Of a stretch of 24,000 bases of DNA, positions 10,854 to 20,668 are shown piece by piece. This stretch comes from Clostridiales bacterium Firm_18 (lineage in GTDB: Bacteria > Bacillota > Clostridia > Monoglobales > Firm-18). The stretch's first letter is position 1. Every line of letters begins with the position of its first letter. The stretch covers positions 62,913 through 86,912 of the forward strand of contig LVAX01000072.1 of NCBI GenBank assembly GCA_001604215.1. Reading direction: 5' to 3'. The notes under the pieces were generated by a model, which was not told the origin of the DNA, searched no databases, and saw only the letters and a program-made list of their open reading frames with translations. Both the position numbers and the translations under genes were made by a program.

Positions 10854-11807
10854 TCATAATTTTATGGTTGATGAATCTATTATTTCAAAGTTGCTTTTTT
10901 TAAGTTTATCTGTCAAATCAAAAAGTGCATTGTCCTTTTCTTTGGCTTCGAGCATTATATCAAAATCCAAATCTACCTCTTTTGCTATTTTTAAAAAAGA
11001 GATGAAGTCGCCCTCGTCTATATAATCGGCGTGACTGCGAAGATTTTTTTGACTTTTGGGAGATGAAAAATGTATTTTGGGTATATCACCGTTCCATGTT
11101 TCAAAAGCAGCATGCAAAAGCCTTGCGTCAGTCTGCCCGCCGGTGCATCTTTCATGGTGTACGTCAAGCACCATGGGTATCTTAAGCTCGGAGCATATTG
11201 CCAAAACGTCCTTTGCACAAAATGATTTATCGTCATTTTCCAATGCAATGTGTTTTTGAATATCACAGGGCAGCTTTGAAAAGTTATCCGCAAACCGTTT
11301 GACAGATAACGCCTTTGTGGTGTACAGTCCTCCGACATGCAGTATCAAGGAGTAATTTTTACACTCAAGATTTGCGGCTTTGAATATTTTCGAATGATAA
11401 ATTAAATCATCCATTGATTTTGCAAAAACTTCTTTGTTAGGTGTGTTAATTACCGTAAAATGGTCCGGATGGGCGCTTATCCGGAAGTTATTTTCAACAA
11501 CGCATGCTCCAAGCTGCCTAAATTCGTCCTGTAATTCGCCTTCCCAATCCCAATCGGCTCCGGGATATGTTGCAAGCGGGATAAGCTTTGAGGTAAGACG
11601 ATATACGTGTATATTGTACGCTTGGTTGTAGCGTAATATCCGCAGGGTGTTTATTAGGTTTTGCTTTGCTTTTTTATAAAGCCGTGCTTTTTTGCCTTCC
11701 TCGGTGAGACTGTTGTATGTTTTTGCCGTGACGGTATTTGATGGGGAGCAGTCTTTGAGGTTTTTTGTCATTGCCACATATCCGAGCCTTATAATCAAAA
11801 TTATCAC
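10854..11807 (-). CDS. uvsE: UV DNA damage endonuclease (UvsE/UVDE)
   Basis: The protein aligns by eye to UvsE as I recall the Bacillus sequence: RLGYVAM, RISAHPDHFTVINTP, ILHVGG, LENDDKSF, DVHHE and HFSSPKS...RSHADYI. The track start is GTG at 11807. TTG at 11798, preceded by AGGGTGA, would give (M)IIRLGYV and may be the true start. Confidence 0.9.
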   Translation of the reverse strand: MIILIIRLGYVAMTKNLKDCSPSNTVTAKTYNSLTEEGKKARLYKKAKQNLINTLRILRYNQAYNIHVYRLTSKLIPLATYPGADWDWEGELQDEFRQLGACVVENNFRISAHPDHFTVINTPNKEVFAKSMDDLIYHSKIFKAANLECKNYSLILHVGGLYTTKALSVKRFADNFSKLPCDIQKHIALENDDKSFCAKDVLAICSELKIPMVLDVHHERCTGGQTDARLLHAAFETWNGDIPKIHFSSPKSQKNLRSHADYIDEGDFISFLKIAKEVDLDFDIMLEAKEKDNALFDLTDKLKKSNFEIIDSSTIKL

Positions 11808-11846
11808 CCTGAAAGATATTATATCCCAATTATCCTTTGCATACGC

Positions 11847-11894
11847 ATATTAGATTGCGCAAAATTAAAAATATTAGATTGCGCAAAATTAAAA
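11847..11894. repeat. Perfect tandem direct repeat, 2 x 24 bp (ATATTAGATTGCGCAAAATTAAAA), each unit carrying the palindrome TTGCGCAA
   Basis: Positions 11847-11870 and 11871-11894 are identical by direct reading. The repeat lies in the divergent spacer between uvsE and the 126-aa ORF and ends 6 nt before the -35 element of the ORF promoter. Confidence 0.9.
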
Positions 11895-11900
11895 ATATAA

Positions 11901-11929
11901 TTGCATTTTGTCATATTGTGGTATATAAT
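11901..11929 (+). promoter_or_regulatory. Sigma-A type promoter for the 126-aa ORF (TTGCAT-17-TATAAT)
   Basis: TTGCAT lies at 11901-11906, followed by a 17-nt spacer, then TATAAT at 11924-11929. Confidence 0.55.
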
Positions 11930-11964
11930 ATAGAAGTTGAATTTGCGGTGGAGTGTGATTTAGT

Positions 11965-12345
11965 TTGAGCAAGTCCAAAGGGGATAATATATTTGTTGTT
12001 GCGAAGTATAGACCTGAAATAAATCAAATATTAAATATTGATTTACCATGCTCAGACGTATATCAATCACATGGATTGGAAATACATATGCGCAAACGAA
12101 AGCACTTTAAATGTATTCCTTATTTAAAAAATATTTCTGAGATTATTGAAAATCCGGATTATGTGGGATTAAATCCTTCGGAAAAAAACAGTGTGGAATT
12201 GGTTAAAGCATATGATATAAATATATTAGTTGCGGTGAAGCTTGATATAAAAAATGATTATTTGTATGTTGCTTCAATGTACAGTCTTAGTAAAAGCAAG
12301 TTAGAGCGCAGAATAAAAGGTAAACGATTAAAAAAGTTTAAGTAA
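11965..12345 (+). CDS. Orphan small basic protein (126 aa), possibly a PBECR-like (Barnase/EndoU/ColicinE5-D/RelE fold) RNase
   Basis: The TTG start lies 11 nt after GGTGGAG (11947-11953). The protein has a His-rich segment (SHGLEIHMRKRKHF), then IPYLKNISEIIENPDYVGLNPSEKNSVELVKAY..ILVAVKLDIKNDYLYVASMYSL and a Lys/Arg-rich tail. This pattern matches my recollection of stand-alone PBECR-type proteins of Firmicutes and phages. The family assignment has not been verified. Confidence 0.6.
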   Translation: MSKSKGDNIFVVAKYRPEINQILNIDLPCSDVYQSHGLEIHMRKRKHFKCIPYLKNISEIIENPDYVGLNPSEKNSVELVKAYDINILVAVKLDIKNDYLYVASMYSLSKSKLERRIKGKRLKKFK

Positions 12346-12349
12346 AGTA

Positions 12350-12378
12350 TTGACATTTATATGCTATGAGTGTATAAT
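12350..12378 (+). promoter_or_regulatory. Consensus sigma-A promoter (TTGACA-17-TATAAT) driving the downstream structured RNA
   Basis: TTGACA lies at 12350-12355, 5 nt after the ORF stop codon. A 17-nt spacer follows, then TATAAT at 12373-12378. Confidence 0.6.
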
Positions 12379-12384
12379 ATAATA

Positions 12385-12540
12385 GTAATAGGATATAGTA
12401 TTAGCGGATTGTTGAGGTTCGGAAATGGTTCCCGACGCACTTAACTGAATGTTAAGTACCTGAGATGCAGGATACACCGCCCTGCCAACAATCCATGATT
12501 AAATTAAGGACACCTCAATAATATGGGGTGTCTTTTTTTT
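12385..12540 (+). ncRNA. Unclassified structured small RNA of about 150 nt, with a four-helix junction core and an intrinsic terminator
   Basis: The RNA is bounded by a consensus promoter and a strong terminator. The hand fold gives four helices:
- P1: GGAUUGUUG (12406-12414) pairs with CAACAAUCC (12486-12494).
- P2: 12419-12435 (UCGGAA/UUC-CCGA with a one-base bulge).
- P3: ACUUAAC (12439-12445) pairs with GUUAAGU (12451-12457).
- P4: GCAGG (12468-12472) pairs with CCUGC (12481-12485).
There is no long ORF. The 5' end is inferred from the -10 position. Confidence 0.5.
12509..12540 (+). terminator. Rho-independent terminator
   Basis: GACACCUC (12509-12516) pairs with GGGGUGUC (12525-12532) as 8 bp including one G-U pair. 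The loop is 8 nt. A run of 8 T follows at 12533-12540. Confidence 0.8.
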
Positions 12541-12574
12541 AAAAGCACTCTATGCCTTTTAAAGGAAACTGGTA

Positions 12575-12594
12575 TTATATATTGCAATATATAA
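12575..12594. promoter_or_regulatory. 20-bp perfect palindrome (TTATATATTGCAATATATAA); candidate operator upstream of the uvrB promoter
   Basis: Direct reading shows all 10 pairs around the G12584/C12585 centre are complementary. The palindrome ends 24 nt upstream of the uvrB -35 element. Its AT-richness lowers its significance. Confidence 0.35.
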
Positions 12595-12618
12595 ATACAA
12601 ATTTTTTATGCAAATATA

Positions 12619-12647
12619 TTGAAAATTAAAATTATATTATGTATAAT
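12619..12647 (+). promoter_or_regulatory. Sigma-A type promoter for uvrBA (TTGAAA-17-TATAAT)
   Basis: TTGAAA lies at 12619-12624, followed by a 17-nt spacer, then TATAAT at 12642-12647. The site is about 55 nt upstream of ATG 12701. Confidence 0.5.
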
Positions 12648-12700
12648 AAAACAATGGTCGAATAAAAAACGTGAATTTTTACGGGAACGGAAGATGGTGC

Positions 12701-14662
12701 ATGGACTTTAAGGTAGTATCCGAGTACAAACCCAAGGGCGACCAGCCCAAAGCAATAGAAATGCTTTCAAACGGACTGAATGCGGGAAAAAGGGCACAGA
12801 CACTGCTTGGGGTAACCGGAAGCGGAAAGACCTTTACAATTGCAAATGTTATAGAGCGTGTGCAAAAGCCCACTCTTGTTTTGGCACATAACAAGACGCT
12901 TGCGGCACAGCTTTGCAGCGAATTTAAAGAATTTTTTCCGCATAATGCGGTTGAGTATTTTGTCAGCTATTATGACTACTACCAGCCGGAGGCTTATATA
13001 CCCTCCTCCGACACATATATCGAAAAGGACTCGTCCATTAACGATGAAATAGACAAGCTTCGCCATTCCGCTACTTTTTCTCTTTTTGAAAGAAGAGACG
13101 TTATAATAGTCGCAAGCGTAAGCTGTATTTACGGGCTCGGTGATCCGGACGATTATAAAAACCTTGTTATTTCTCTGCGCAGCGGCAATGTGTATGACAG
13201 GGACGAAGTGCTGAGAAAGCTTATAGAAATCCAGTATGAAAGAAACGATATTAATTTTACAAGGGGAAAATTTCGTGTCAGGGGCGATGTTGTGGAAATT
13301 TTCCCCGCTAACCAGTCGGAAAGGGCTGTGAGAGTTGAATTTTTCGGGGACGAGGTTGACCGTATAACGGAGATAGATACCGTAACGGGAGAAATAATAG
13401 GAATAAGAAATCACGTTGCAATATATCCGAGTTCCCATTATGTAACAACCAAGGACAAGATGAAAAGGGCAATAGAAGAAATAAAAAAGGAGCTTGAGGA
13501 GCGTGAGAAATATTTTAGCAGCAGGGGAATGCTTATTGAGGCTCAAAGGATAAAGGAACGCACCAACTATGATATTGAGATGCTTGAGGAAACCGGCTTT
13601 TGCCAGGGCATAGAAAACTACTCGAGAATAATAAGCGGACGTGCTCCGGGAAGCGCACCATATACGCTTATGGATTATTTCCCGGATGATTATTTGCTGG
13701 TAATAGACGAATCACATGTAACGGTACCGCAGGTTCGTGCCATGTACAACGGTGACAGGGCAAGAAAAGACAATCTTGTAAGCTATGGCTTTCGTTTGCC
13801 CTCCGCATACGATAACCGTCCGCTTAATTTTAAAGAATTTGAGGAAAGAATCAACCAGGTGATATTTGTAAGCGCAACCCCCGCCGATTATGAAAAAAGC
13901 AATTCCGCCCAGATTGTGGAACAGGTAATACGGCCTACCGGTCTTGTCGACCCTGCTGTGATTGTTCGCCCCGTTAAAGGGCAGATTGACGATTTGTACG
14001 GTGAAATTATGCACACCGTTGAACGGGGAGAACGTGTTTTGATTACAACACTTACTAAAAAAATGGCGGAGGATTTAACCGATTATTTTGAGCAAATGGG
14101 TGTAAAGGTCAGATACTTGCATTCGGATATTGATACGATAGAACGCATGGAAATAATACGGGATTTAAGGCTGGGCGTATTTGACGTACTTATAGGTATT
14201 AATTTGTTAAGAGAAGGTTTGGACTTGCCCGAGGTATCGCTTGTTGCTATACTCGATGCCGACAAGGAAGGGTTTTTGCGCAGCGAAACCTCGCTTATTC
14301 AAACAATCGGAAGAGCGGCTCGCAACAGAGAGGGCAAGGTTGTTATGTATGCAGATACTATAACGCCAAGCATGGAGCGTGCAATCGAAGAAACGAACAG
14401 GCGCAGGCAGCTTCAAATCAGTTATAACGAGAAGCACGGAATTACTCCGAAATCCATAACAAAATCGGTGCGTGATATTATAGAAGCAACCAAACAGGAA
14501 AAGGAAGAAAAGAAGAAAGCCGAAAAGGCTTTAAATATTGCTGAAGAAATTGAAAAGCTTACCGATGAAATGCGGCTTGCCGCGTATGATTTAAGATTTG
14601 AGCAGGCTGCCCGTTTAAGGGACAGAATAAGAGAACTTGAAAAGGAGCTCGGCAATGGATAA
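12701..14662 (+). CDS. uvrB: Excinuclease ABC subunit B
   Basis: The protein begins [22 protein letters not shown]. It has the Walker A motif [10 protein letters not shown], helicase motifs, and a C-terminal UVR domain ([17 protein letters not shown]). The track start at GTG 12671 adds 10 non-homologous residues, so ATG 12701 is preferred. Confidence 0.97.
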
Positions 14663-17486
14663 GATAATAATCAAGGGAGCAAGAGAGCATAATTTAAAAA
14701 ATATAGATGTTGTAATACCCCGGGATAAGCTGGTGGTAATAACCGGACTTAGCGGTTCGGGCAAATCGTCCCTTGCTTTTGACACAATTTATGCGGAGGG
14801 GCAAAGACGTTATATCGAATCGCTTTCCTCTTATGCGCGTATGTTTTTGGGAAGAATGGACAAGCCGGATGTGGACTACATCGAAGGCTTGTCCCCCGCC
14901 ATTTCTATTGACCAAAAGACAACAAGCAAAAACCCGCGTTCAACCGTCGGTACCGTTACCGAAATATATGACTATTTAAGGCTGCTGTACGCCCGCATAG
15001 GCATACCTCACTGCCCAAACTGCGGCAGGGAAATAAAACAGCAAACCATTGACCAAATTACAGACAGTATTATGCGCCTTAAGGAGGGTACAAGAATTCA
15101 AATTTTGTCCCCTGTTGTAAGAGGGAAAAAAGGGGAGCATGCAAAGGTTTTTGAGGATGCCAAAAAAAGCGGATTTGTGCGGCTGCGTGTTGACGGGAAT
15201 ATATACGATGTGTCGGAGGATATCAAGCTTGAAAAGACAAAAAAGCACAACATAGAAATTATCGTTGACAGGCTTATAGTTAAAGACGGCATAAATGCCC
15301 GCCTTACCGATTCGCTGGAAACCGCAATGCGGCAAGCTGGTGGACTTGTAATAGCGGAACTTGTGGAAAAGGGTGAAGAGCTTGTTTTCAGCCAGGAATA
15401 TGCCTGCCATGAATGCGGAATAAGTGTTGAAGAGCTTAGCCCGCGTATGTTTTCCTTTAACAGCCCGTTCGGAGCATGCCCCACATGTACCGGGCTTGGC
15501 TTTCAAATGAAGGTTGATGTGGATCTTGTAATTCCGAACAAAAACAAATCCTTAAATGAAGGGGCAATTAACGTAAGCGGCTGGAACAGCGCAGCAAAGG
15601 ACAGCATGTGCGCAATGTATTTTAAAGGGCTATCGGAGCATTACGGCTTCGGCCTTGATACGCCAGTGAAGGATTTGCCCGAAGAAGCCTTGAACGCACT
15701 GCTTTTCGGTACGGGAGGAAAAAAGATAAAATTCCTTTTCGAACGTTCATACGGAAACGGCTCATACCTTTCGGCTTTTGAGGGTGTTATCAATAATCTG
15801 GAGCGACGGTATCGGGAAACCAATTCCGATTGGATGAAAATGGAGATTGAAAGTTATATGACAAGCAATACCTGTCCCGATTGCAACGGGGCAAGGCTTA
15901 AAAAGGAAGTTCTGGCGGTAACGGTCGGTGGAAGGAATATTGACGAAGTTACGCATATGAGTATTTCAAGCGCGGCCGGATTTTTCAGGAACCTTTCGCT
16001 TACCGAAAAAGAAAAAGCAATAGCACACCAGGTACTTAAAGAAATAAACGAGCGTTTAGGTTTTTTGGAAAACGTCGGGCTTAATTATTTAACACTTTCA
16101 CGCCCGGCAGGAACCCTTTCCGGCGGGGAAGCGCAAAGAATCCGGCTTGCAACCCAAATAGGCTCTTCGCTGATGGGTGTGCTTTATATACTTGACGAGC
16201 CGAGTATCGGTCTTCACCAGCGGGATAATTCAAAACTGATTTCGGCGTTGAAGCGGCTGAGAGATTTGGGCAATACACTGATTGTTGTGGAGCATGATGC
16301 GGAAACTATGCATGAGGCAGACCATATAATAGATATCGGTCCTGGCGCCGGTGTAAACGGCGGGAAGATTGTTGCCCAGGGAAGTATTGATGAAATTAAA
16401 AAATGCGATACTTCCGAAACAGGTCTTTATCTGAGCGGGAAAAAGAAAATCGAGATACCCCAAAAAAGAAGGAAAGGCAACGGCAAAAGCTTGAAAGTAA
16501 TTAGGGCGCGTGAGAATAATTTAAAAAACATTGACGTTACTTTGCCTCTCGGAACGTTTGCTTGCGTTACGGGAGTATCGGGCAGCGGCAAATCCTCCCT
16601 TGTAAACGAAATATTGTACAAGCGCCTTGCAAACGAGCTTAACGGTGCAAAAAAGAAAACAGGACGGCATGACGATATAATAGGGATTGACAATCTGGAT
16701 AAGGTTATTAATATTGACCAGTCCCCGATAGGCAGAACCCCCCGTTCAAACCCGGCAACCTATACCGGCCTTTTCGGTGAAATCAGGGATTTGTTTGCTT
16801 CTACCAACGAAGCGAAGATGAGAGGCTACCGGGCCGGCAGGTTCAGCTTTAACGTAAAGGGAGGCAGATGCGAGGCATGCGAGGGTGACGGAATAATTAA
16901 AATCGAAATGCATTTTCTGCCCGATGTTTATGTGCCTTGCGAGGTGTGCAAGGGAAAAAGGTATAACAGGGAAACACTTGAAGTTCATTACAAAGGCAAA
17001 AATATTGATGACGTTCTTAACATGACGGTTGACGAGGGCCTTGAGTTTTTTGAAAACCTGCCGAGAATATACAGAAAGCTCAAAACCCTGCATGAAGTAG
17101 GGCTGGGTTATATAAAGATAGGGCAGCCGTCCACAACCTTGTCGGGCGGGGAAGCACAGCGTGTAAAACTTGCAACCGAGCTTTCAAAGAAAAGTACGGG
17201 CAAAACGGTATATATACTTGACGAACCTACAACCGGCCTTCATGCCGCAGATGTCCACCGTTTGATTGATGTCCTTCAAATGCTGGTTGATGGTGGGAAC
17301 ACGGTTGTGGTAATCGAACATAACCTTGATGTAATAAAGGTTGCGGATTACATTGTCGATTTAGGACCGGAGGGCGGAGACGGAGGAGGCCATGTTGTGG
17401 CAGCCGGAACTCCGGAGCAGGTGGCAAAATGCAGTGCATCTTATACCGGGCGTTATTTGAAGGATTGCCTTGACAACAATAGGTAA
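14655..17486 (+). CDS. uvrA: Excinuclease ABC subunit A
   Basis: The protein begins [17 protein letters not shown]. It has two ABC ATPase modules ([23 protein letters not shown] and [16 protein letters not shown], with LSGGEAQR twice) and zinc-finger Cys pairs. It overlaps the uvrB stop by 8 nt. Confidence 0.97.
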
Positions 17487-20593: not shown

Positions 20594-20668
20594 TGGAGCG
20601 GAAGACGAGATTCGAACTCGCGACTTTCACCTTGGCAAGGTGACACTCTACCACTGAGTCACTCCCGC
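20594..20668 (-). tRNA. tRNA-Gly (anticodon GCC), 75 nt with encoded CCA
   Basis: The reverse complement is GCGGGAGTGACTCAGTGGTAGAGTGTCACCTTGCCAAGGTGAAAGTCGCGAGTTCGAATCTCGTCTTCCGCTCCA. It has a 7-bp acceptor stem, a D-loop AGTGGTA, an anticodon loop TTGCCAA, a T-loop TTCGAAT, a U discriminator base and CCA. Confidence 0.97.

What the first reader, a model, noticed from the sequence alone, without database searches (positions are those of the whole stretch)
12350..12540. Stand-alone structured RNA with its own consensus promoter and terminator, not assignable to a known RNA family
A perfect TTGACA-17-TATAAT promoter starts 5 nt after the stop codon of the 126-aa ORF. It drives a non-coding transcript of about 150 nt that ends in a strong intrinsic terminator: 8-bp stem at 12509-12532 followed by 8 T.

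The core at 12406-12494 folds by hand into a compact four-helix junction. It is closed by a perfect 9-bp P1 helix. P4 abuts the 3' strand of P1, so the two could stack coaxially.

I could not match it to tRNA (wrong loops, no T-loop), 6S RNA, SRP RNA, a T-box, SAM-I, or the yybP or NiCo four-way-junction riboswitch consensus sequences as I remember them.

Three readings are possible:
- A trans-acting sRNA.
- An RNA partner or antidote of the adjacent toxin-like protein. No terminator separates the two, so the RNA would also form the 3' UTR of that mRNA.
- A ligand- or damage-sensing leader of uvrBA. In that case, GAGGU at 12414-12418 can alternatively pair with ACCUC at 12512-12516 in the terminator 5' arm.

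A 7-codon mini-ORF (MVPDALN, 12425-12448) with GAGG 7 nt upstream is embedded in P1/P2.
Basis: partly seen in the sequence, partly recalled or inferred. Interest (0 to 1): 0.7.

Follow-up and report, generated by a model that had tools for sequence, protein, structure and literature searches.

The report
Skipping-rope RNA beside a toxin-like RNase
The structured RNA is real, but it belongs to a known orphan family (skipping-rope RNA, Rfam RF02924); the data here show it is the constant partner of a small toxin-like RNase gene, so it is most likely that toxin's RNA antidote.

Summary
Window 12350-12540 contains:
- a perfect TTGACA-17-TATAAT promoter;
- an 89-nt four-way-junction RNA at 12406-12494;
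- a strong intrinsic terminator.

The claim that the RNA is "not assignable to a known RNA family" is wrong. Rfam assigns 12407-12493 to skipping-rope RNA (RF02924) at 68.4 bits against a gathering score of 36.7. This family was described in 2017 and its function is unknown.

Across 61 distinct homologues, P1, P3, P4 and a three-pair pseudoknot (12427-12429 with 12476-12478) covary.

The upstream 126-aa ORF is a PBECR3 protein, a predicted BECR-fold RNase.

The linkage between protein and RNA is asymmetric:
- Starting from the protein, the RNA lies just downstream on the same strand in 119 of 121 informative loci (46/46 viral, 73/75 metagenomic), down to 30% protein identity. The two exceptions are a broken RNA and a truncated gene.
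- Starting from the RNA, only about 59% of genomic copies and about 42% of viral copies have the protein.

No other neighbouring protein family is conserved. The RNA's own near-consensus promoter is present in 64 of 65 paired loci.

Best explanation (inferred, not shown): a type III-like toxin-antitoxin module in which the RNA is the antidote. The uvrB-leader and mini-ORF readings are rejected.

The parts
11965..12345 (+). 126-aa ORF encoding a PBECR3-family protein, a predicted BECR-fold endoRNase and the putative toxin. It starts at TTG, with GGAG at 11950-11953 upstream.
   Evidence: ORF. Pfam PF18812 PBECR3 at E = 2.7e-24 and 85.7 bits (cut-off 30). H41, K44, H47, P64, G68, E78, K81, Y101, K112 and R121 are invariant in 17 homologues. 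AlphaFold2 model has pLDDT 93.8. The best PDB fold matches are RelE/HigB/YoeB toxins, but all are weak (E >= 0.03).
12350..12378 (+). Dedicated sigma-70 promoter of the RNA: TTGACA, 17-nt spacer, TATAAT. The predicted transcription start is near 12385-12386.
   Evidence: Matches 12 of 12 positions. An equivalent promoter scoring at least 10 of 12, with its -10 element ending 27-36 nt before P1 in nearly all, is present in 64 of 65 protein-paired loci.
12406..12494 (+). Skipping-rope RNA core (RF02924). P1 is 12406-12414 with 12486-12494. P2 is 12417 and 12419-12422 with 12432-12436. P3 is 12438-12445 with 12451-12457, plus the closing pair C12438-G12462. P4 is 12467-12471 with 12481-12485.
   Evidence: Rfam 68.4 bits against a gathering score of 36.7. 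My own covariance model R1 gives 85.1 bits. Minimum-free-energy fold. Covariation on 61 sequences.
12427..12429 (+). 5' strand of the pseudoknot: GGU in the P2 loop.
   Evidence: Pairs with 12476-12478. The three pairs are 99.5% paired across 61 sequences, and the third pair covaries as U-A 42, C-G 14, U-G 4. Rfam reports a covariation-supported pseudoknot for RF02924 (PMC7779021).
12476..12478 (+). 3' strand of the pseudoknot: ACC in the P4 loop.
12506..12540 (+). Intrinsic terminator: a G+C-rich hairpin followed by 8 T. It would end both the RNA and the read-through toxin mRNA.
   Evidence: Weinberg et al. 2017 list a 3' terminator as a feature of the motif (PMC5737381).

Best explanation
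Window 11965-12540 is a two-gene mobile module made of a small PBECR3 endoRNase and a skipping-rope RNA. [quoted passage not shown]

**Proposed mechanism**
- The RNase is the toxin.
- The pseudoknotted four-way-junction RNA binds the toxin directly and keeps it inactive, possibly as a mimic of its substrate.
- The RNA is supplied in excess. Every toxin mRNA reads through into one RNA copy, because there is no terminator between the two. A perfect consensus promoter, which in most homologous loci overlaps the 3' end of the toxin gene, adds many more copies.
- When transcription stops or the RNA is degraded (loss of the element, or phage takeover), the toxin is freed.
- RNA copies without the protein, which are frequent in phages, would act as stand-alone antidotes or decoys.

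**What is shown**
- The identity and structure of the RNA.
- The protein family.
- The asymmetric linkage between the two.
- The conserved promoter.
- The absence of any conserved protein partner.

**What is inferred**
- Toxicity of the protein.
- RNase activity.
- Direct RNA-protein binding.
- Neutralisation of the protein by the RNA.
For: 1. The RNA is a bona fide skipping-rope RNA with a covariation-supported fold and pseudoknot.
2. The neighbouring protein is PBECR3. This is a clade of the barnase/EndoU/colicin/RelE (BECR) RNase fold, which is typical of toxins (PMC5512222). Two His residues and several Lys/Arg/Glu residues are invariant.
3. Starting from the protein, the RNA is almost always present:
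   - 46 of 46 IMG/VR loci with downstream sequence carry the RNA about 40-125 nt downstream on the same strand, down to 30% protein identity.
   - 73 of 75 informative metagenome loci carry it, 72 directly adjacent and one 2.3 kb away after an inserted gene. The two exceptions are a broken RNA and a truncated protein gene.
   - P0018, at 37% identity, also has it.
   - A Streptococcus suis prophage homologue at 39% identity is followed by the RNA 19 nt later, next to the att site.
4. Starting from the RNA, the protein is often absent:
   - 57 of 97 genomic loci have the protein.
   - 38 of 91 viral loci have it.
   - Four complete Enterocloster phage genomes carry the RNA with no detectable PBECR3.
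   - "Toxin never alone, antidote often alone" is the pattern expected of a toxin-antitoxin pair.
5. Unbiased clustering of all neighbouring ORFs finds no other enriched family, so there is no candidate protein antitoxin or immunity gene.
6. A near-consensus promoter for the RNA is present in 64 of 65 paired loci.
7. There is a precedent. Another 2017 orphan motif, abiF, was shown to be a type III-like RNA antitoxin of AbiF in C. difficile (10.1101/2025.04.15.648962).
Against: - No experiment bears on toxicity, binding or neutralisation.
- The RNA is much more conserved than the protein. It has 24 invariant and 16 nearly invariant positions while the protein drops to 30% identity. This is unlike known type III antitoxins, which diversify with their toxins, and it points to an additional constraint.
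- The layout is unlike ToxIN. The RNA is usually single-copy rather than a repeat array, lies downstream rather than upstream of the toxin, and the toxin has a different fold.
- PADLOC, NCBIfam and PHROGs have no model for the protein.
- The fold match to RelE-type toxins is below significance.
- An obligate RNA cofactor would also explain the near-100% protein-to-RNA linkage.
- Many loci in the viral and metagenome samples are near-identical copies, so the counts overstate the number of independent observations.
Confidence: 0.5

Rival explanations
1. The RNA is an obligate cofactor, scaffold or specificity subunit of PBECR3. The two form a ribonucleoprotein enzyme whose activity needs the RNA rather than being blocked by it.
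For: The protein is essentially never found without the RNA. The RNA has the extreme conservation and tertiary pseudoknot typical of functional ribonucleoprotein RNAs. Weinberg et al. suggested a "biochemically challenging task" for the motif.
Against: About 40-58% of RNA copies have no PBECR3 within several kb. Complete Enterocloster phage genomes carry the RNA without any detectable PBECR3. No BECR-fold RNase that needs an RNA cofactor came up in what I read here.
Confidence: 0.2
2. The RNA has a function of its own, for example a trans-acting small RNA or a mimic or decoy of a conserved cellular RNA that is useful to phages and hosts. PBECR3 would then be an accessory that processes it or has merely become linked to it.
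For: Orphan copies are frequent and keep all conserved nucleotides. The RNA is more conserved than the protein. Rfam types the family as an sRNA.
Against: Only 19 of 48 orphan copies keep a good promoter, against 64 of 65 paired copies. The strict position and strand of the protein, always immediately upstream on the same strand, points to a functional unit. Nearly all conserved nucleotides sit in structure or junctions rather than in a long single-stranded seed.
Confidence: 0.2
3. The RNA is a cis-regulatory element. It would be either a ligand- or damage-sensing leader of uvrBA, or a 3'-UTR element that controls only the stability of the PBECR3 mRNA.
For: The RNA lies between the PBECR3 gene and uvrB. 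It is co-transcribed with the PBECR3 mRNA because no terminator intervenes.
Against: A strong terminator and a separate uvrB promoter follow the RNA. uvrB is not a recurrent neighbour. The proposed antiterminator pairing is not conserved. The RNA has its own conserved promoter. Weinberg et al. found the motif only rarely in 5' UTRs.
Confidence: 0.04

Closest known systems
skipping-rope RNA motif (Rfam RF02924; Weinberg et al. 2017, PMC5737381)
   Same: The match covers the full model at 68.4 bits. The shared features are the P1-P4 junction, the conserved GAGG, GGAAA and GAGAUG nucleotides, the pseudoknot, the 3' intrinsic terminator, and the association with a nearby protein gene.
   Different: Nothing essential. 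P3 is longer than the consensus (7 bp plus the closing pair), and there is one extra bulged U in P2, a variant also seen in L096. The 2017 main text does not name the associated protein. Here it is identified as PBECR3, and it is always upstream on the same strand.
Type III toxin-antitoxin systems (ToxIN, CptIN, TenpIN; PMC3401426, PMC8860590)
   Same: A small endoRNase gene is tightly linked to, and co-transcribed with, a pseudoknot-forming non-coding RNA. There is no protein antitoxin. The modules occur on mobile elements and prophages. Phage-borne orphan RNA copies recall the phage pseudo-ToxI (this last point is from my own knowledge).
   Different: The toxin fold is BECR, not ToxN-like. 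The RNA is a single 80-90-nt four-way junction, not an array of 34-36-nt repeats. The RNA lies downstream of the toxin with its own promoter, rather than upstream with an attenuating terminator. Processing of the RNA by the toxin is unknown.
abiF motif RNA RCd22 with AbiF of Clostridioides difficile (10.1101/2025.04.15.648962)
   Same: An orphan structured RNA motif linked to one protein family turned out to neutralise a prophage-encoded toxic protein by direct binding, in cis and in trans.
   Different: Both the protein family (Abi_2/AbiD/F, Cas13-related) and the RNA structure differ. In that system the RNA also down-regulates toxin expression.
RelE/HigB/YoeB and colicin D/E5 BECR-fold RNase toxins with protein antitoxins or immunity proteins
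   Same: The protein is assigned to the same fold superfamily (Pfam PBECR3). The best structural neighbours of the model are RelE-type toxins.
   Different: Those toxins are neutralised by an adjacent protein. No conserved protein neighbour exists here.

Membership tests
skipping-rope RNA (RF02924) | Covariance-model score at or above Rfam's gathering threshold of 36.7 bits over the full model | tested here: met
   68.4 bits, E = 8.2e-15, model positions 1-80 of 80, window 12407-12493 on the + strand.
skipping-rope RNA (RF02924) | P1 closing a junction of three hairpins, with conserved junction and loop nucleotides (GAGG, GGAAA, CGCAC, GAGAUG) | tested here: met
   Minimum-free-energy fold. 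All 24 columns that are invariant across 61 homologues are present in the window sequence. Covariation in P1, P3 and P4.
skipping-rope RNA (RF02924) | Pseudoknot with covariation support (PMC7779021, Fig. 3A) | tested here: met
   GGU at 12427-12429 pairs with ACC at 12476-12478. Cells are 99.5% paired, and the third pair covaries as U-A 42, C-G 14, U-G 4. I located the pseudoknot by covariation and could not compare it with the Rfam figure, which is not held.
skipping-rope RNA (RF02924) | Rho-independent terminator at the 3' end (PMC5737381) | tested here: met
   Hairpin at 12506-12535 followed by 8 T.
skipping-rope RNA (RF02924) | Association with one specific protein encoded nearby (PMC5737381) | tested here: met
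   A PBECR3 ORF ends 60 nt upstream of P1 in the window. The same arrangement is seen in 57 of 97 genomic loci found by the RNA and in 119 of 121 informative loci found by the protein. The supplement that names the 2017 protein could not be read.
Type III toxin-antitoxin (ToxIN/CptIN/TenpIN) | The toxin is an endoRNase of the ToxN-like superfamily | tested here: not met
   The protein matches Pfam PBECR3 and PBECR2 only. Structural neighbours are RelE-type.
Type III toxin-antitoxin (ToxIN/CptIN/TenpIN) | The antitoxin is an array of short tandem RNA repeats upstream of the toxin gene, separated from it by a terminator | tested here: not met
   There is a single 89-nt structured RNA downstream of the ORF with its own promoter. 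Two or three RNA copies, tandem or flanking the gene, occur only occasionally (L048, L088, L093, L139, L154, L155).
Type III toxin-antitoxin (ToxIN/CptIN/TenpIN) | The RNA binds the toxin protein directly and neutralises it | not testable with these tools
   This needs toxicity-rescue and binding assays. Only the genomic linkage pattern is available.
Riboswitch or cis-regulatory leader | Located in the 5' UTR of a recurrent class of downstream genes, with an expression platform | tested here: not met
   Downstream genes are unrelated across loci. A terminator and a separate uvrB promoter follow the RNA. The alternative pairing is not conserved.
tRNA or tmRNA | Cloverleaf recognised by ARAGORN or the Rfam tRNA model | tested here: not met
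   The only tRNA in the window is tRNA-Gly(GCC) at 20594-20668.

The most novel reading that the evidence does not exclude
Skipping-rope RNA and PBECR3 together are a new, widespread family of RNA-antitoxin (type III-like) toxin-antitoxin or abortive-infection modules. It would be the first with a BECR-fold toxin and with a single, highly conserved, pseudoknotted four-way-junction RNA transcribed from its own promoter. The frequent protein-less copies in phages would be anti-toxin decoys. The RNA's extreme conservation would arise because it mimics the toxin's conserved cellular RNA target.
Probability: 0.4. Interest if true: 0.75.

Novelty: new member of a known kind. Interest (0 to 1): 0.5.

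Why it matters

The family still has no known function. Its discoverers singled it out as a candidate for "sophisticated biochemical function".

The comparison made here turns that into a testable hypothesis:
- The partner protein is a predicted BECR RNase.
- The protein is essentially never found without the RNA, whereas the RNA is often found alone, especially in phages.
- No protein antidote is conserved nearby.

If the RNA does neutralise the RNase, three things follow:
- RNA-antitoxin systems would extend to a second, very large toxin superfamily.
- An orphan RNA common in gut Clostridia and their phages would gain a function.
- There would be a compact RNA-protein pair available for structural work.

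Tried and rejected
**Readings rejected**
- tRNA or tmRNA: ARAGORN finds none at this site.
- Other Rfam families: a permissive scan of 11700-12750 gave only sub-threshold noise, for example BSnc119 at 27 bits against 115 and GcvB at 21.5 against 42.
- uvrB leader or antiterminator: rejected.
- Mini-ORF MVPDALN: not conserved.

**Searches that found nothing**
- A second conserved neighbouring protein, such as a protein antitoxin or DUF3800. Clustering all ORFs in about 110 loci gave only PBECR3. The next cluster is an artefact: an ORF read antisense through the RNA itself. The remaining clusters are generic families such as ABC ATPases at variable distances.
- PBECR3 remnants beside orphan RNAs. 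Only two partial fragments were found, in L057 and L081, both cut by contig ends.
- PADLOC, NCBIfam, PHROGs and PDB sequence searches gave no hit for the protein.

**Weak or unavailable**
- Foldseek against the PDB gave only weak matches, all E >= 0.03. They are used only as consistent with the Pfam assignment.
- The supplement of Weinberg et al. 2017, which names the associated protein, is not held.
It was repeated with a narrower alignment.

**Noted but not used**
- The 24-nt tandem repeat upstream of the ORF is not a conserved operator. It is a duplication absent from a 99%-identical relative and from all other loci.
- The P4 loop and stem share 9 nt (ACACCGCCC) with the universal 16S rRNA segment around position 1400. 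A 9-mer match somewhere in rRNA is expected about once by chance, and one of these positions covaries with the pseudoknot. I do not use it as evidence.

Full report
**1. The observation**

- The promoter scan finds TTGACA-17-TATAAT at 12350-12378, matching 12 of 12 positions. It starts 5 nt after the stop codon of the 126-aa ORF at 11965-12345.
- The only terminator-like site in 11700-12800 is the hairpin at 12506-12535, followed by eight T at 12533-12540.
- The minimum-free-energy fold of 12406-12494 gives a perfect 9-bp P1 closing three hairpins, with P4 directly abutting the 3' strand of P1. Energy is -28.6 kcal/mol, z = -3.0.
- The whole predicted transcript folds with z = -4.7.

**2. Identity of the RNA**

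Rfam can.
- cmscan of the window at gathering thresholds reports skipping-rope RNA (RF02924) at 12407-12493 on the + strand. The score is 68.4 bits against a gathering score of 36.7, E = 8e-15, over the full model.
- The only other Rfam hit in the window is tRNA-Gly.
- A permissive scan of the region adds only noise.

What the literature says about the family:
- Skipping-rope was described by Weinberg et al. 2017 (PMC5737381). [quoted passage not shown]
- It is rarely found in 5' UTRs and showed no self-cleavage in vitro.
- No function was proposed.
- Rfam later noted a covariation-supported pseudoknot (PMC7779021).
- The motif was also seen among phage non-coding RNAs (10.1101/2021.01.05.425417).
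- I found no paper in the held library that gives it a function or links it to PBECR3.

**3. Structure tested on homologues**

A pattern built from the conserved core was scanned over one genome per species.
Eight are G+C-rich chance matches. The rest are clear homologues, mostly from Lachnospiraceae, Oscillospiraceae, Acutalibacteraceae and other Clostridia.

On a MAFFT alignment of 61 distinct sequences (A2, with the window as row 1):
- 24 columns are invariant and 16 are at least 90% conserved.
- For the Rfam-type structure plus a pseudoknot that I located by covariation, 94.6% of cells are standard pairs. Shuffles give 77.8%, and sliding the partners gives 34-47%.
- Sixteen pairs carry changes on both sides, chiefly in P1, P3 and P4.
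- The pseudoknot joins GGU in the P2 loop (12427-12429) to ACC in the P4 loop (12476-12478). Its third pair covaries as U-A 42, C-G 14, U-G 4.
- P2 and the closing pair C12438-G12462 hardly vary, so they are neither supported nor contradicted.

**4. The neighbouring gene**

- The 126-aa ORF matches Pfam PBECR3 (PF18812, E = 2.7e-24) and, more weakly, PBECR2.
[quoted passage not shown] They occur solo or inside injected polyvalent proteins (PMC5512222).
- Homologues share invariant H41, K44, H47, P64, G68, E78, K81, Y101, K112 and R121. This is consistent with the His-based active site described for colicin-like BECR enzymes, including PBECR3 (10.64898/2026.08.28.747851).
- An AlphaFold2 model is confident (pLDDT 93.8).
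- Its best PDB neighbours are almost all RelE/HigB/YoeB/YafQ toxins, but at non-significant scores (E >= 0.03, TM 0.3-0.5). I treat this only as consistent with the Pfam assignment.
- PADLOC, NCBIfam, PHROGs and the PDB sequence search have nothing for the protein.
- The surrounding genes are uvdE on the minus strand upstream, and uvrB and uvrA downstream.

**5. Linkage, tested in both directions**

*Starting from the RNA*
- Of 97 genomic loci with at least 600 nt of upstream sequence, 57 have a PBECR3-like ORF of about 110-190 aa. It always lies immediately upstream and on the same strand.
- The median gap between its stop codon and P1 is 45 nt.
- The other 40 loci have unrelated upstream genes, including glutamate dehydrogenase, GNAT acetyltransferases, and ParE or PemK toxins. 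They show no PBECR3 remnants.
- Clustering all ORFs from these loci finds PBECR3 in 58 loci. No other real family reaches more than 12 loci. The second-largest cluster is an artefactual ORF read antisense through the RNA.

*Starting from the protein*
- Viral contigs (IMG/VR): 48 loci have homologues at 30-53% identity. Two are cut by the contig end right after the gene. All 46 others have a hit to my covariance model R1 about 40-125 nt downstream on the same strand.
- Metagenome contigs: of 80 loci, 74 have the RNA. In one of these (L214) it lies 2.3 kb away after an inserted gene, and two RNA hits are cut by the contig end. Four further loci are cut before the RNA. One has an RNA that breaks off after P2 on a low-coverage contig. 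One has a truncated protein gene and no RNA.
- A 37%-identical relative found through the protein database is also followed by the RNA.
- In Streptococcus suis prophages, a 39%-identical homologue annotated "spbA protein" sits after the lysin at the prophage end. It is followed 19 nt later by a skipping-rope RNA scoring 70.3 bits, just before the att site.

*Viral contigs searched with the RNA pattern*
- The result was 38 paired copies, 53 orphans and 7 cut (12 and 28 distinct RNA cores for paired and orphan copies).
- Four complete Enterocloster phage genomes of about 100 kb carry the RNA, but tblastn finds no PBECR3 in them.

*Summary and caveat*
- The protein implies the RNA in 119 of 121 informative loci, about 98%.
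- The RNA implies the protein in roughly half of cases.
- Many viral and metagenome loci are near-identical, so these counts overstate the number of independent observations. The span of protein identities (30-55%) and hosts (Clostridia to Streptococcus) shows the linkage is old.

**6. Expression signals**

- In 64 of 65 paired loci, a promoter matching at least 10 of 12 consensus positions lies between the end of the ORF and the RNA, often overlapping the ORF's last codons. In nearly all of them its -10 element ends 27-36 nt before P1.
- Only 19 of 48 orphan copies have such a promoter.
- In the window the promoter is perfect, and no terminator separates the ORF from the RNA.
- The RNA is therefore made both on the 3' end of the protein's mRNA and, presumably in much greater amount, on its own. 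The excess is an inference from promoter quality and has not been measured.

**7. Interpretation**

The pattern is as follows:
- a predicted toxin-fold RNase with an intact active-site signature;
- no conserved protein partner;
- an invariably linked, separately and strongly transcribed structured RNA;
- frequent RNA-only copies, especially in phages;
- location in prophage accessory regions and in scattered chromosomal sites.

This is what a toxin-antitoxin pair with an RNA antidote would produce, that is, a type III-like system.

A direct precedent exists. Another 2017 orphan motif, abiF, has been shown to be an RNA that binds and neutralises the AbiF toxin of a C. difficile prophage, in cis and in trans.

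I put this explanation at about 0.5. None of its functional steps (toxicity, RNase activity, binding, neutralisation) is shown.

The module is not a member of the known type III families:
- the toxin fold differs;
- the RNA is not a repeat array;
- the gene order is reversed (see the membership table; type III features from PMC8860590 and PMC3401426).

The main unexplained point is that the RNA is far more conserved than the protein. A substrate-mimic antidote would explain this, and so would a cofactor role or an independent function. These two are the main rivals, at about 0.2 each.

**8. Rejected readings**

- *uvrBA leader.* The RNA is followed by a terminator, and uvrB has its own promoter at 12619-12647. 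uvrB is not a recurrent neighbour. The proposed GAGGU/ACCUC alternative pairing has no comparative support, with CCTC downstream in 14 of 111 loci.
- *Mini-ORF.* Its ATG is part of the conserved GGAAAUGG loop. It is replaced by AAG, AGG or ACG in 13 of 61 sequences, and the reading frame has no conserved length.

**9. Verdict**

- The headline claim is wrong, because the RNA belongs to a known family.
- The locus is a new member of that family.
- The value of the follow-up lies in the specific, testable hypothesis it gives for an RNA family that still has no assigned function.

Noticed in passing
window 11847-11894: A perfect tandem duplication of a 24-nt unit (ATATTAGATTGCGCAAAATTAAAA), each copy containing the palindrome TTGCGCAA. 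It lies in the divergent uvdE/PBECR3 intergenic region, just upstream of a TATAAT at 11924-11929. A 99%-identical relative (L253) has only one copy, and no other locus has the sequence. It therefore looks like a recent strain-level duplication rather than a conserved operator.
   Followed up: partly
window 10854-17486: The RNase/RNA module is wedged into a DNA-repair cluster: uvdE (10854-11807, minus strand), then uvrB (12671-14662) and uvrA (14637-17486) on the plus strand. The close relative L253 has the same arrangement. I did not test whether related genomes lack the module at this site, which would show it to be an insertion.
   Followed up: no
L274, L271, L301, L302 and related IMG/VR loci (RNA-relative coordinates -18 to about -230): In one group of related phages, an orphan skipping-rope RNA follows, 18 nt downstream, a 67-71-aa ORF with a sequence that looks to me like a ribbon-helix-helix protein (...VRVPKGKKAEI...SLNAFVNEAIDE...). 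This ORF itself follows an amidase-type lysin and a holin-like gene. The position matches that of the PBECR3+RNA pair in Streptococcus suis prophages, which lies after the lysin near att.
   Followed up: partly
L048, L088, L093, L139, L154, L155: Some loci carry two or three skipping-rope copies, either in tandem or flanking the PBECR3 gene. L088 has three within 600 nt, and L154 has two back to back. This is faintly reminiscent of type III antitoxin repeat arrays.
   Followed up: no
window 12474-12482: The P4 loop and 3' stem read ACACCGCCC. From my own knowledge, this is identical to 9 nt of the universally conserved 16S rRNA segment around position 1400 (GUACACACCGCCCGU). A 9-mer match somewhere in rRNA is expected about once by chance, and one of these positions covaries with the pseudoknot, so it is probably coincidence.
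   Followed up: no
L214:2855-5130: In one metagenome contig the PBECR3 gene and its RNA are separated by about 2.3 kb. The intervening sequence contains a gene with its own promoter-like sequence, apparently an insertion into the module.
   Followed up: no
window 20594-20668 (minus strand): tRNA-Gly(GCC), the only other Rfam or ARAGORN hit in the window.
   Followed up: no
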